DNA from: a virus
Taxonomy: Duplodnaviria; Heunggongvirae; Uroviricota; Caudoviricetes
IMG/VR virus record: IMGVR_UViG_2913112809_000002
Length of the DNA: 64,000 bases
Strand: one strand, 5' to 3'
Part shown: piece after piece, positions 33,001-36,000 of the stretch
Layout: every line of letters starts with the position of its first letter
Numbering within the stretch: the first letter of the stretch is position 1
Position numbers: made by a program

Positions 33001-36000
33001 ACATTAAACACTGAAAAAGGAATGTGGGTAGGAAAAAAAGAAGATGTAACCGAACAGGCAGTTAAGGCAGTAACTGAACACCTGATGATAAAAGACCGGA
33101 AATATGCATACGAAACGAATGATGGCAAATGGGTGATAATAATGCATCAACTGGTTGATGAATTACCAGAAGAGTTTATTGCTGATTAAAATTATTTTGG
33201 CATAAACAACAGAAGCGAAGATGTTGACAGTTGGTAAGTCATATTCAACTAAAAATGGAAAGACATTTAGTTGTGAAAAAGATATTGGAGAAATAGACAC
33301 CATCTTTCCATTTGGTGGATGGGTATACAATTCTGATGGAAGCAAAGACAGATTTGCATATTACACCAGAGGAGGTGCTTATAAACCAACCAAATCAGAA
33401 TATGACTTAATTATTTAGCACAGAGAAGCACTGTGTATTCATTCCAACGAGTGAATACACGGAGCAATGTCGCTCGTAACTAAACAGGAGCCGACTTGTT
33501 CTGATTATTGGAAATCTTCTTTGCCCTCCAGTGTGAGGGCAATTTTTTTGACGGAGAAATTATGAAAATTACAGATATTCTGGTTAATCCAGATAATTAC
33601 GACCAATTCAATATCTCTACTAAATCGGTTGATTTGGGATGTGCAACTGTCAGCGCATGGCTACTTAATGGTAAACAGTTGGATAAATGCCTTGATGCAC
33701 ATATGACGGTTAACAGCTTCCTTGCAGAAAAGACACACTGGCAAGATGCTGGAGGGAAATATGCTGGATGGCTTGAAAGCATGGGATTTGAATATCAATC
33801 TGATGAAGGTTGGTGGAGCCTCATAGCTGTAACGCCTGAGACAATAGAATGCTTCGTTAAATACTCAAACGACGATGACTATAAACACCAGGTAGATTCT
33901 GCGATAGAAAGATATAGAAGAAAATCATTCAACCACGAAATATCATCAGTTCTTGATTTCATAGAAGTATTCAAATAAGCCGCCAAGAGCGGCTTTACCG
34001 CATACCAATAATGCTTCACCCGAGGCATTTCCGTTATGTGTAAATAAATAAGGAGCACACCATGCAATATGTCATTGCAGGGTGGCCTGTTGCTGGCTGC
34101 CCTTCCGAATCTTTACTTGAACGAATCACCCGTAAATTACGTGACGGATGGAAACGCCTTATCGACATACTTAATCAGCCGGGAGTTCCAAAAAATGGAT
34201 AAAACACTTATGGCTATCCAGACTAAATTCACTATCGCCACTTTTATTGGCGATGAAAAGATGTTTCGTGAGGCCGTCGAAGCCTACAGGAAATGGAGGT
34301 CAAAATGATTCCGGTAGAACTGGCGAAAACTCCAGAGTTAAGTCGATTAAAAAGAGAATATCACATTGCTGAGGCTCGTTACTGGCGTAAAGCGGGAGAT
34401 AAATCAAAGAAACAACTTTGTTTATGGCAGGCACAAAGAGAGCGCATGAATGAGCGCGAGTTTCTTTCCTCCCCATCCGAATTACCATTCTGAGGCAAAT
34501 TATGGGAACTGCGACATTAATACTCGGTGAGTCTGGCACCGGAAAATCAACCAGCATGAGAAATATCAATCCCGAGGAAGCAATACTTATAAAACCAATA
34601 GGCAAGCCGCTACCATTTAAATCAAAAGACTGGCTTGCATGGGATGCCAGAGCAAAAAAAGGAACCGTAGTTACCACTGACAAATGGGACGTAATAGTTG
34701 CCGTAATTAAGCGTGCTCACGAATACGGGAAAAGAATCGTTATTGTTGATGACTTCCAGTATGTGATGAGCAATGAGTTTATGCGCCGCTCAGAAGAAAA
34801 ATCGTTTGATAAATTTACTGAGATAGGCCGCCACGCATGGGAGGTGATTAAGGCTGCACAGGATGCGCCTGATGACCTGAGAGTCTATTTTCTTGCCCAT
34901 ACCGAAGAAACCCCTATGGGGCGTGTGAAAATGAAGACTATCGGCAAAATGCTGGACGAGAAAATCACTGTCGAAGGCATGTTTACTATAGTTCTTCGCA
35001 CTCTTACCCGCGATGACCAGTTCTTTTTCACCACGAAAAACAACGGTGCAGACACTGTTAAATCCCCAATGGGAATGTTTGATTCCAATGAGATTGATAA
35101 CGATCTCTCTTTCGTCGATGCCACTGTTTGTGATTACTACGGCATCAATAATGTTCATCAAATTAAGGAAAACGCCGCATGAGCAACGTGATTTTTACTT
35201 ATAACGAAGAAGCAGCACTGACCGCAGGACAAGGTGGTTTTATTAATGAAACTGGCGCTCATATTATTACCATTACTGAAGCAGAACTAAAGCAATCAGA
35301 AAAAGGAGCCAAATTTATTGAGTTTTCTGGAGAATCCGACGACGGACGTAAAATCCAATATCTTAGCGTTTGTGTTCAGAAAAATGACGGCACGGAAAAC
35401 AAATTTGGCGCAAATGTCGTTCACGCCATGATGGGGTGTGCCGGGATTGGGCAATTAACGCAACATATGGTTTCCGCCAGTAAATTTGTTGCACCTGAAT
35501 TTCATGGAAAGAAAATCGGGTTAGTGCTCCAGAAAGTATTAACCACAAACAAAAAGACTGGCGCAGACAGCTACCAGATGGAAATACGCATCCCGTTTAT
35601 TGCACAAACAGGTCAAACCCTTAAAGAAAAGGCGGAAGGCAAGCAACCAGAAACTATCGCCAACATGGTTGCCAGCCTCAAAGATAAAGACAATCGCTCT
35701 AAAAACGTAAGCCAGAATCATGCAGATGATTATGGTTACAGCCAGAACGATTACCCTCCTTTCTGATTATTGAAAATAAGGCTCCCATTATGCCAGCGCC
35801 TCTGTATGGTGCGGATGACCCGCGCCGCTGTTCCGGCAATTCCGTATTGGAGGTGCTGGATAAATTCAGAAAAAACTACGACCTGATAATGTCGCTACCG
35901 CAGGAAACGAAAGAGGAAAAGGAATTTCGCCATTGTATATGGCTTGCAGAGAAAGAAGAACGCGAGCGAATTTACCAGACATTAATCCGACCATTCCGCA

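What the first reader, a model, noticed from the sequence alone, without database searches (positions are those of the whole stretch)
34502..35766. Sak4-like ATPase plus SSB-like protein in place of a lambda Red system
No exo/bet/gam homologues follow kil. Instead there is a Walker-A ATPase of Sak4 size and a protein with an SSB-like C-terminal tail (DYPPF). Assignment is by motif and synteny only.
Basis: partly seen in the sequence, partly recalled or inferred. Interest (0 to 1): 0.3.

Follow-up and report, generated by a model that had tools for sequence, protein, structure and literature searches.

The report
HK620-type Sak4–SSB phage recombination module

Summary
Both ORFs are at the stated coordinates: 34502-35182 (226 aa) and 35179-35766 (195 aa, ending NDYPPF), joined by an ATGA stop/start overlap. 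The first is 225/226 identical to HK620 HkaL (Sak4). The second is 194/195 identical to HkaK (SSB_HK620). Profile hits agree: PHROG 2872 'Sak4-like' at 3.9e-108, PHROG 743 'SSB' at 1.8e-66, and Pfam AAA_24 above its gathering score.

AlphaFold2 models give a core-only RecA/Rad51 fold for the ATPase. For the second protein they give a divergent SSB-like beta-barrel core with a disordered tail. That model matches DUF669 proteins and N4-like phage SSBs, and more weakly PrgE and bacterial SSBs.

No lambda exo/bet/gam or P22 erf/arf/abc1 homologue occurs anywhere in the 64 kb. The pair sits in the fixed cassette cIII-kil-hkaM-sak4-ssb-abc2, which is the HK620 Rec module.

Hutinet et al. 2018 (PMC5928155) showed that HK620 Sak4 is an ATP-dependent ssDNA annealase. 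Its cognate SSB stimulates it through the last six residues, NDYPPF.

Verdict: observation confirmed, interpretation supported, already known, low interest. The side observations are an HNH endonuclease insertion just downstream and an early-left operon that lacks xis/int and runs into a second phage's late region.

The parts
34062..34202 (+). cIII (46 aa, short form as in HK620); upstream end of the conserved cassette
   Evidence: tblastn with HK620 cIII gives 95.7% identity over 46 aa. The same 46-aa gene is called in the public genomes.
34195..34308 (+). kil (37-aa form; the mechanical ORF extends to 34069, giving 79 aa)
   Evidence: Pfam Lambda_Kil E=5.6e-21 and PHROG 2461 E=7.7e-49. It is 97.3% identical to HK620 Kil. 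Its stop codon overlaps the hkaM start codon (ATGA at 34305-34308).
34305..34493 (+). hkaM, a 62-aa orphan gene of the Rec module with no known function (the mechanical ORF starts at 34293)
   Evidence: 98.4% identical to HK620 HkaM. A GGAGG sequence lies 7 nt upstream of the ATG at 34305. PHROG 1723 labels the family 'recombinase', but PMC5928155 reports no homology to P22 Arf and shows that sak4+ssb alone reproduce the activity of the whole module.
34502..35182 (+). sak4 (hkaL orthologue): core-only RecA/Rad51-type ATPase, an ATP-dependent ssDNA annealase
   Evidence: 225/226 identical to HK620 Sak4. PHROG 2872 E=3.9e-108. Pfam AAA_24 at 30.2 bits, above the gathering score of 27. The AlphaFold2 model has pLDDT 86.9. 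Foldseek matches Rad51, RadA, RecA and KaiC, and a solved staphylococcal-phage Sak4 (8rc5, TM 0.55/0.57).
34526..34549 (+). Walker A motif GESGTGKS (Sak4 residues 9-16)
   Evidence: Read directly from the sequence. G9, S11, G12, G14 and K15 are invariant in 33 relatives (alignment A2).
34736..34753 (+). Walker B motif IVIVDD (Sak4 residues 79-84)
   Evidence: D83 and D84 are invariant in alignment A2. The motif follows beta-strand 79-82 of the model.
35179..35766 (+). ssb (hkaK orthologue; 'SSB-2', DUF669/N4 gp45-like): the cognate ssDNA-binding partner of Sak4
   Evidence: 194/195 identical to HK620 HkaK. PHROG 743 E=1.8e-66. NCBI names the homologues 'DUF669 domain-containing protein'. The AlphaFold2 model has pLDDT 80.1 and a beta1-3/helix/beta4-5 order of elements. 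Foldseek matches DUF669 proteins and N4-like phage SSBs (E down to 1.4e-12), and PrgE and bacterial SSBs more weakly.
35746..35763 (+). C-terminal tail NDYPPF (SSB residues 190-195), the Sak4-recruiting tip
   Evidence: Identical to the HK620 tail. Deleting that tail cut recombineering 10-fold and abolished Sak4 binding to SSB-coated ssDNA (PMC5928155). Residues 176-193 are predicted to be disordered. Most relatives keep an acidic/aromatic ...PF ending, and some end in DDDIPF like E. coli SSB (alignment A1).
35790..36086 (+). abc2, the anti-RecBCD (RecBCD-hijacking) protein; last gene of the Rec module
   Evidence: Pfam Anti-RecBCD_p2 E=9.3e-61. 91.8% identical to P22 Abc2 and 93.9% identical to HK620 Abc2.

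Best explanation
This is the HK620-type homologous-recombination ('Rec') module of a lambdoid prophage. It lies in the pL early-left operon, where lambda carries gam-bet-exo and P22 carries arf-erf-abc1-abc2. Abc2 binds host RecBCD and converts it into a resection machine that produces 3' ssDNA. That role is established for P22 Abc2 and is only inferred here, from 92% identity. The HkaK-type SSB coats the ssDNA. Its disordered C-terminal tip NDYPPF recruits Sak4, a 226-aa RecA/Rad51 ATPase core without a second DNA-binding domain. With ATP, Sak4 binds ssDNA and anneals complementary strands. The result is single-strand annealing, as in recombineering at replication forks, rather than RecA-like strand exchange. 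The biochemical steps were shown for proteins that differ from these by one residue each. Their action in this particular prophage is inferred.
For: The sequence is almost the same as the characterised system: 97.3% DNA identity to HK620 across 34000-36100, 225/226 residues for Sak4 and 194/195 for SSB. The one SSB difference (E153 here, V in HK620) matches the family consensus. A Sak4 cluster 100% identical to the window protein has 1036 member sequences.

Family and fold evidence agrees: PHROG 2872 and 743, and Pfam AAA_24 above threshold. Walker A and B are invariant in relatives. The Sak4 model has a RecA/Rad51 core fold, with 227 PDB matches at E<=1e-3, including a solved phage Sak4 (8rc5). 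The SSB model has an SSB-like order of secondary-structure elements, a disordered tail, and matches to DUF669 proteins, N4-like SSBs, PrgE and bacterial SSBs.

The experiments were done on the HK620 proteins (PMC5928155). They showed ATP-dependent ssDNA binding and annealing. Recombineering rose 15-fold with sak4 alone and about 210-fold with sak4+ssb. Deleting the six-residue tail caused a 10-fold loss. No strand exchange was detected.

The context fits an operon. The genes are linked by ATGA overlaps, cIII-kil-hkaM-sak4-ssb-abc2 has identical spacing in six unrelated genomes, and no alternative recombinase is present in the window.
Against: Nothing contradicts the assignment. There are five caveats.

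1. No experiment was done on this allele or this prophage.
2. The SSB-like protein has no reportable Pfam hit. Its PDB fold matches are weak (TM 0.39/0.55). [quoted passage not shown] Its SSB function is therefore established, but its homology to bacterial SSB is not.
3. The prophage context looks rearranged, with no xis/int after the early-left operon. The module may therefore sit in a defective element.
4. An earlier result showed that a Walker A mutant of PA73 Sak4 kept activity in vivo (PMC2896510), so the in vivo ATP requirement is not fully settled across the family.
5. The role of Abc2 is extrapolated from P22. Co-expressing abc2 with sak4 did not stimulate oligonucleotide recombineering.
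Confidence: 0.95

Rival explanations
1. The pair serves mainly phage DNA replication rather than recombination as such. The SSB would act as a replication SSB, and Sak4 would help the switch from theta to rolling-circle replication or help restart forks.
For: PMC12315714 notes that lambdoid Rec modules have been implicated in the theta-to-sigma switch. The closest structural relatives of the SSB include the N4-like phage SSBs. SSB_HK620 also stimulates RecA strand exchange in vitro (section heading).
Against: This is not exclusive of the annealase mechanism, because recombination-dependent replication would use the same biochemistry. The genes lie in the early-left Rec module, not next to the O/P replication genes at 27160-29480. 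Recombineering activity has been shown directly.
Confidence: 0.15
2. The ATPase is a generic P-loop NTPase, for example a DnaB/KaiC-like helicase fragment, a helicase loader or a Zot-like protein, and the 'Sak4' label is an annotation artefact.
For: RefSeq calls it only 'ATP-binding protein' or 'AAA family ATPase'. Pfam also gives AAA_22 and weak ABC and Zot hits. KaiC C1 and FlaH appear among the fold matches.
Against: It is 99.6% identical to a protein purified and shown to be an ATP-dependent annealase. At 226 aa it has no DnaB or RecA C-terminal domain, which is the size criterion used to define Sak4 (under 290 aa; PMC2896510). The best mutual TM-score is to a solved Sak4 (8rc5). KaiC and FlaH belong to the same RecA-like superfamily, so those matches are expected.
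Confidence: 0.02
3. The genes are intact but are functionally idle cargo of a rearranged or defective prophage, kept only because they arrived recently by mosaic exchange.
For: The early-left operon has no xis/int and runs into the nin/Q/late region of a second phage. In six other genomes the same cassette continues to xis-int and a host junction. No complete E. coli genome in the collection reproduces this arrangement.
Against: Every ORF of the cassette is full length with ribosome-binding sites and coupled start codons. The cI/cro/N/O/P genes of the left-hand phage look intact. This rival concerns whether the genes are used in this host, not what they are.
Confidence: 0.2

Closest known systems
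Phage HK620 Rec module hkaM-hkaL(sak4)-hkaK(ssb)-hkaJ(abc2) (NC_002730; Hutinet et al. 2018, PMC5928155)
   Same: Gene order, spacing and overlaps are the same. DNA identity is 97.3%. Protein identities are Sak4 225/226, SSB 194/195, HkaM 98%, Abc2 94% and cIII/kil 96-97%. Walker A and B and the NDYPPF tail are identical.
   Different: There is one substitution in each protein (Sak4 D43 versus E; SSB E153 versus V). The surrounding phage is not HK620. The immunity region, N, integrase and virion genes all differ: a contractile-tail module lies on one side and a lambda-like module on the other. An HNH endonuclease gene is inserted just downstream, between hkaI and the hkaH-like gene.
Lambda Red system (gam-bet-exo)
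   Same: It occupies the same position in the pL operon, after cIII-kil. The outcome is the same: ssDNA annealing and recombineering, combined with neutralisation of RecBCD.
   Different: There is no sequence homology. The annealase has a RecA/Rad51 fold and depends on ATP, whereas Beta has a Rad52-like fold and does not. The module has no dedicated exonuclease. RecBCD is hijacked by Abc2 rather than blocked by Gam. A phage-encoded SSB is needed for full activity.
P22 arf-erf-abc1-abc2
   Same: The four-gene layout after kil is the same, and Abc2 is truly homologous (92% identity).
   Different: Erf, Arf and Abc1 have no homologues here. Sak4 replaces Erf, and HkaK replaces Abc1 in position only.
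Staphylococcal/lactococcal phage Sak4 (phi31; the Sak4 solved in complex with SaPI2 Stl, PDB 8rc5) and archaeal RadB / Rad51 paralogues
   Same: All share the core-only RecA fold, a small size and Walker A/B motifs.
   Different: Sequence identity is only about 14%. No profile-level hit to any PDB sequence was found, so the relationship is visible only by fold or by profile-profile methods.
N4 gp45-type / DUF669 phage SSBs, pCF10 PrgE and bacterial SSB
   Same: The predicted core resembles theirs. The protein has an acidic/aromatic C-terminal tip ending in PF, like E. coli SSB (DDDIPF). ssDNA binding has been shown for the HK620 protein.
   Different: It does not reach the Pfam SSB or DUF669 thresholds. 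TM-scores to solved SSBs are low, about 0.2-0.55. The partner recruited by the tail is the phage's own Sak4.

Membership tests
Sak4 family (core-only RecA/Rad51 phage recombinases; Lopes et al. 2010) | Significant profile match to Sak4 family models | tested here: met
   PHROG 2872 'Sak4-like ssDNA annealing protein', E=3.9e-108, covering 1-220 of 226 aa. PHROG 124 E=1.7e-5. Pfam AAA_24 at 30.2 bits, above the gathering score of 27.
Sak4 family (core-only RecA/Rad51 phage recombinases; Lopes et al. 2010) | RecA/Rad51-type ATPase core fold | tested here: met
   The AlphaFold2 model has pLDDT 86.9 and pTM 0.86. Foldseek finds 227 PDB hits at E<=1e-3, led by Rad51, RadA, RecA and the solved Sak4 8rc5 (TM 0.55/0.57).
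Sak4 family (core-only RecA/Rad51 phage recombinases; Lopes et al. 2010) | Short length (under 290 aa), with no RecA C-terminal or DnaB-type extra domain | tested here: met
   The protein is 226 aa and the model is a single domain. The criterion is quoted from PMC2896510.
Sak4 family (core-only RecA/Rad51 phage recombinases; Lopes et al. 2010) | [quoted passage not shown] | tested here: met
   GESGTGKS (residues 9-16) and IVIVDD (residues 79-84). G9, S11, G12, G14, K15, D83 and D84 are invariant in 33 relatives.
Sak4 family (core-only RecA/Rad51 phage recombinases; Lopes et al. 2010) | ATP-dependent ssDNA binding and annealing; recombineering in vivo | not testable with these tools
   Shown for HK620 Sak4, which differs by one conservative residue (D43E) (PMC5928155; identity).
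Sak4-associated phage SSB (HkaK / 'SSB-2' / DUF669 / N4 gp45-like) | Gene directly adjacent to sak4 | tested here: met
   There is a 4-base ATGA overlap with sak4. The same adjacency occurs in all six genomes. PMC5928155 reports an ssb gene next to up to 80% of sak4 genes.
Sak4-associated phage SSB (HkaK / 'SSB-2' / DUF669 / N4 gp45-like) | Profile match to the family | tested here: met
   PHROG 743 'single strand DNA binding protein', E=1.8e-66. 194/195 identical to HkaK.
Sak4-associated phage SSB (HkaK / 'SSB-2' / DUF669 / N4 gp45-like) | Acidic/aromatic C-terminal tip (NDYPPF) on a disordered linker | tested here: met
   The tail is identical to HK620. Residues 176-193 have pLDDT below 50. 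The ...PF ending is kept in most of 37 relatives.
Pfam DUF669 (PF05037) | Score at or above the Pfam gathering threshold | tested here: not met
   The window protein gives no hit even at E<=10. Eight of 37 relatives hit DUF669, but the best E-value is only 0.0052. Fold search does link the model to DUF669 proteins (E=1.4e-12, TM 0.65/0.60), and NCBI names the homologues DUF669. It is therefore a peripheral relative rather than a member by the Pfam criterion.
Bacterial-type SSB (Pfam SSB PF00436, OB fold) | Sequence-profile match to SSB | tested here: not met
   There is no Pfam SSB hit and no PDB sequence hit with either the single sequence or the family profile.
Bacterial-type SSB (Pfam SSB PF00436, OB fold) | OB-fold core (beta1-3, helix, beta4-5) | tested here: inconclusive
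   The order of elements in the model is E26-39, E45-53, E58-67, H75-88, E92-99, E112-123, E130-141, which fits an OB fold. The top PDB matches are OB-fold SSBs: PrgE 8s4s (E=5.3e-4, TM 0.39/0.55), then SsbA, P. aeruginosa SSB and M. leprae SSB. TM-scores are low, and GFP beta-barrels are mixed in among the hits. The literature disagrees: 'distant homolog' against 'not a homolog'.
Lambda Red (Exo/Bet/Gam) | Homologues of exo, bet or gam | tested here: not met
   tblastn over the whole window gives best E-values of 1.0, 0.97 and 2.3.
P22 Abc2 anti-RecBCD (module partner) | Pfam Anti-RecBCD_p2 match and homology to P22 Abc2 | tested here: met
   E=9.3e-61, full length. 91.8% identical to P22 Abc2.

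The most novel reading that the evidence does not exclude
The HkaK-type partner protein (DUF669 / N4 gp45-like, 'SSB-2') may be a highly derived OB-fold protein that shares ancestry with PrgE and bacterial SSBs, including the ...PF partner-recruiting tip. [quoted passage not shown] A separate and more speculative reading is that this recombination module helped to create the unusual int-less junction between two prophages seen in this window.
Probability: 0.4. Interest if true: 0.2.

Novelty: already known. Interest (0 to 1): 0.08.

Why it matters
The finding matters little beyond correct annotation. The pair is the textbook example of the Sak4/SSB class of phage recombination modules. The exact SSB sequence occurs in more than 4,000 blocks of the public collection, and a Sak4 cluster 100% identical to the window protein has 1036 member sequences. 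The practical value is that RefSeq still labels these genes 'ATP-binding protein' and 'hypothetical protein' or 'DUF669'. A scan that recognises them can therefore class the prophage as Rec+ with an Abc2-type anti-RecBCD function. That class is relevant to phage mosaicism, to triggers of retron and other defence systems, and to the choice of recombineering tools.

Tried and rejected
1. Pfam on the 195-aa protein at E<=0.1 and at E<=10 gave no family at all. NCBIfam gave nothing useful for either protein.

2. phmmer and hmmsearch of both proteins and of both family profiles against PDB sequences gave no meaningful hit. Only fold comparison links them to solved structures.

3. I suspected that the RefSeq label 'Nmad5 family putative nucleotide modification protein' might be a rival annotation of the SSB-like gene. 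It belongs to a different gene upstream of cIII that this window does not carry, so I rejected this.

4. I searched for an integrase or excisionase after the early-left operon with the HK620 integrase only; lambda Int and Xis dropped out of the query set when the first script failed. The HK620 query found nothing.

5. I tried to find a complete E. coli genome with the same arrangement across 30-40 kb, 37-50 kb and 36.85-39.4 kb. None covers 80% or more, so the origin of the junction remains unresolved.

6. The first Python attempt failed because loci fetched by accession were not exported to /data. I worked around this by translating the lambda and P22 genes with the translate tool.
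Full report
OBSERVATION. One is 34502-35182 (+, 226 aa), beginning MGTATLILGESGTGKS. 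The other is 35179-35766 (+, 195 aa), ending SQNDYPPF. The second start codon overlaps the first stop codon as ATGA. Upstream lie a short cIII (34062-34202), kil (34195-34308; Pfam Lambda_Kil E=5.6e-21) and a 62-aa ORF (34305-34493). Downstream lies a 98-aa ORF (35790-36086) that is a full-length Pfam Anti-RecBCD_p2 match at E=9.3e-61.

I also tested the negative half of the observation. A tblastn search with lambda Exo, Bet and Gam and P22 Erf, Arf and Abc1 against all 64 kb gave nothing better than E=0.43. The HK620 proteins HkaM, Sak4, SSB, Abc2, cIII and Kil each gave a full-length hit at 94-99.6% identity.

WHAT IT IS. PHROGs assigns the 226-aa protein to phrog_2872, 'Sak4-like ssDNA annealing protein' (E=3.9e-108, covering the whole profile). 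It assigns the 195-aa protein to phrog_743, 'single strand DNA binding protein' (E=1.8e-66). Pfam gives AAA_24 for the ATPase at 30.2 bits, above the gathering score of 27.

Megablast of 34000-36100 against 50,697 phage records gives 97.3% identity over the full length to coliphage HK620 genes hkaM, hkaL, hkaK and hkaJ. Hundreds of other lambdoid and Stx phages match at 90-95%. At the protein level the window's Sak4 is 225/226 identical to HkaL (D43 here, E in HK620). The SSB is 194/195 identical to HkaK (E153 here, V in HK620). E153 is the family consensus. A Sak4 cluster 100% identical to the window protein has 1036 member sequences. The exact SSB sequence is indexed in 4,117 blocks of the public assembly collection.

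INDEPENDENT FOLD-LEVEL CHECKS. Neither protein, nor a profile of its relatives, hits any PDB sequence, so I predicted structures from alignments of 33 and 37 relatives.

The Sak4 model (pLDDT 86.9, pTM 0.86) is a single alpha/beta domain. Foldseek returns 227 PDB matches at E<=1e-3, led by Rad51, RadA, RecA, Rad51 paralogues and KaiC-C1. The best mutual TM-score (0.55/0.57) is to 8rc5, 'RecA-like Sak4 SSAP' of a staphylococcal phage. Walker A (G9, S11, G12, G14, K15) and Walker B (D83, D84) are invariant in the relatives. The length of 226 aa meets the criterion of under 290 aa with no extra domain that Lopes et al. 2010 used to define Sak4 (PMC2896510).

The SSB model (pLDDT 80.1, pTM 0.75) has three strands, a helix and then further strands, which is the order of elements in an OB fold. 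Residues 176-193 are predicted to be disordered and lead to the NDYPPF tip. Against predicted viral structures it matches DUF669 proteins (E=1.4e-12, TM 0.65/0.60) and the SSBs of N4-like phages. Against the PDB its best hits are OB-fold ssDNA binders: PrgE of pCF10 (E=5.3e-4), B. subtilis SsbA, and the P. aeruginosa and M. leprae SSBs. TM-scores are low, however, and unrelated beta-barrels are mixed in among the hits.

The window protein gives no Pfam hit at all. Eight of 37 relatives touch DUF669 below threshold. This reproduces the chain of relationships reported by Hutinet et al., from HkaK through N4 gp45, Lc-Nu and PhiAT3 SSBs to E. coli SSB, with no direct match to E. coli SSB. [quoted passage not shown] Its function as an SSB is established. 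Its homology to bacterial SSB is plausible but unproven.

HOW IT WORKS. The mechanism is known from experiments on the HK620 proteins (PMC5928155).
- Sak4 binds ssDNA only with ATP, not with ADP, and does not bind dsDNA.
- Sak4 anneals complementary strands in an ATP-dependent way.
- Sak4 alone raises oligonucleotide recombineering 15-fold. Sak4 plus SSB raises it about 210-fold, as much as the whole four-gene module. SSB alone does nothing, and abc2 adds nothing in this assay.
- Deleting the last six SSB residues (NDYPPF, compare E. coli SSB DDDIPF) lowers recombineering 10-fold and prevents Sak4 from binding SSB-coated ssDNA.

Abc2 is 92% identical to the P22 protein that binds RecC and redirects RecBCD. 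By inference it supplies resected 3' ssDNA, since the module encodes no nuclease of its own. What I verified here is the identity of the sequences, motifs, tail, fold and operon layout. The biochemical steps are taken from the literature on near-identical proteins. Whether the module is used in this particular prophage is inferred.

CONTEXT. The + strand from 30488 follows the lambdoid early-left direction. It carries a cI-like S24 repressor (30488-31195) and an N-like ORF with an arginine-rich motif (32517-32936). Next comes the cassette cIII-kil-hkaM-sak4-ssb-abc2, followed by an hkaI-like DUF2737 gene. On the - strand to the left are cro-like, cII-like, O-like and DnaB-type genes. Left of those is a contractile-tail virion module like vB_EcoM-611R5 and SEN34.

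In six other genomes the same cassette has identical internal spacing. It is flanked by variable genes and ends in xis-int and a host junction. It therefore behaves as a mobile mosaic unit.

COMPARISON AND NOVELTY. The module works like lambda Red in outcome and in position, but it is unrelated in sequence. It uses an ATP-dependent RecA-fold annealase together with a dedicated SSB, and it hijacks RecBCD through Abc2 rather than inhibiting it with Gam. It is a member of the HK620 Rec-module type in every feature I could test. The finding is correct and already known. Interest is low.

SIDE OBSERVATIONS. These are listed separately:
- an HNH endonuclease gene inserted at the hkaI/hkaH junction, with a duplicated and diverged copy of the target;
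- no xis/int after the early-left operon, which instead continues into the methyltransferase-DUF551-ORF6N-DUF968-Q-tRNA-lysis-terminase-portal-tail region of a lambda-like siphovirus on the same strand, so that two virion modules face outward;
- annotation issues for hkaM and for cIII/kil.

Noticed in passing
window 36097-37361 (HNH ORF 36260-36838): An HNH endonuclease gene (Pfam HNH_3 E=7.8e-15; PHROG 99 E=3.5e-53) sits between the hkaI-like DUF2737 gene and the hkaH-like gene, which abut directly in HK620. The 70-80 bp just downstream of the HNH ORF (about 36811-36890) nearly reproduces the uninterrupted hkaI-3'/hkaH-5' junction of HK620. The real 3' end of the window's hkaI (about 36200-36258) is a diverged copy. 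This pattern is expected for a free-standing homing-endonuclease insertion.
   Followed up: partly
window 37350-64000 compared with 1-30000: The early-left operon has no excisionase or integrase and no att/host junction. From about 37.35 kb it continues on the same strand into a methyltransferase, DUF551, ORF6N, DUF968, Q, two tRNAs, lysis genes, terminase, portal, capsid and tape-measure genes. This stretch is a lambda-like siphovirus right arm (95-96% identity to phiSTEC1575-Stx2k and PhiR63_1). The - strand of 1-30 kb holds a complete right arm with a contractile-tail module. Two outward-facing virion modules share one immunity/Rec region. This suggests an inversion or recombination between two prophages, or a misassembly. 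No complete E. coli genome in the collection reproduces it.
   Followed up: partly
window 34305-34493 (hkaM): PHROG 1723 and the RefSeq HK620 record label this 62-aa orphan 'recombinase'. The primary literature says it has no homology to P22 Arf, and sak4+ssb alone reproduced the activity of the whole module. The label is probably carried over from the original positional guess.
   Followed up: yes
window 34062-34308: The cIII/kil region has two competing gene models. One is a 46-aa truncated cIII plus a 37-aa Kil, as annotated in HK620. The other is a single 79-aa 'Kil' ORF (34069-34308) in another frame that overlaps cIII. PHROG 2461 matches this longer ORF over its whole length (E=7.7e-49). 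Public genomes use both callings.
   Followed up: partly
window 22853-23008 (-) and 43475-43628 (+): There are two separate pairs of phage-borne tRNA genes (Thr-TGT + Asn-GTT, and Thr-TGT + Gly-TCC). Each lies downstream of a Q-like region in one of the two outward-facing right arms.
   Followed up: no
window 35179-35766 and relatives (alignment A1): The C-terminal tips of HkaK-type SSBs vary by host clade. Xenorhabdus members end in D-D-D-I-P-F, exactly like E. coli SSB. Several Salmonella, Citrobacter and Klebsiella members end in ...D-F without the proline. This hints at co-variation of the tail with the partner, either Sak4 or host SSB-interacting proteins.
   Followed up: no
window 37358-37843: A 161-aa SAM-dependent DNA methyltransferase-like ORF (PHROG 954 E=1e-87) starts with GTG and overlaps the stop codon of the hkaH-like gene. 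It lies where similarity to the early-left regions of Stx and HK620-like phages ends and collinearity with the nin region of other prophages begins.
   Followed up: partly
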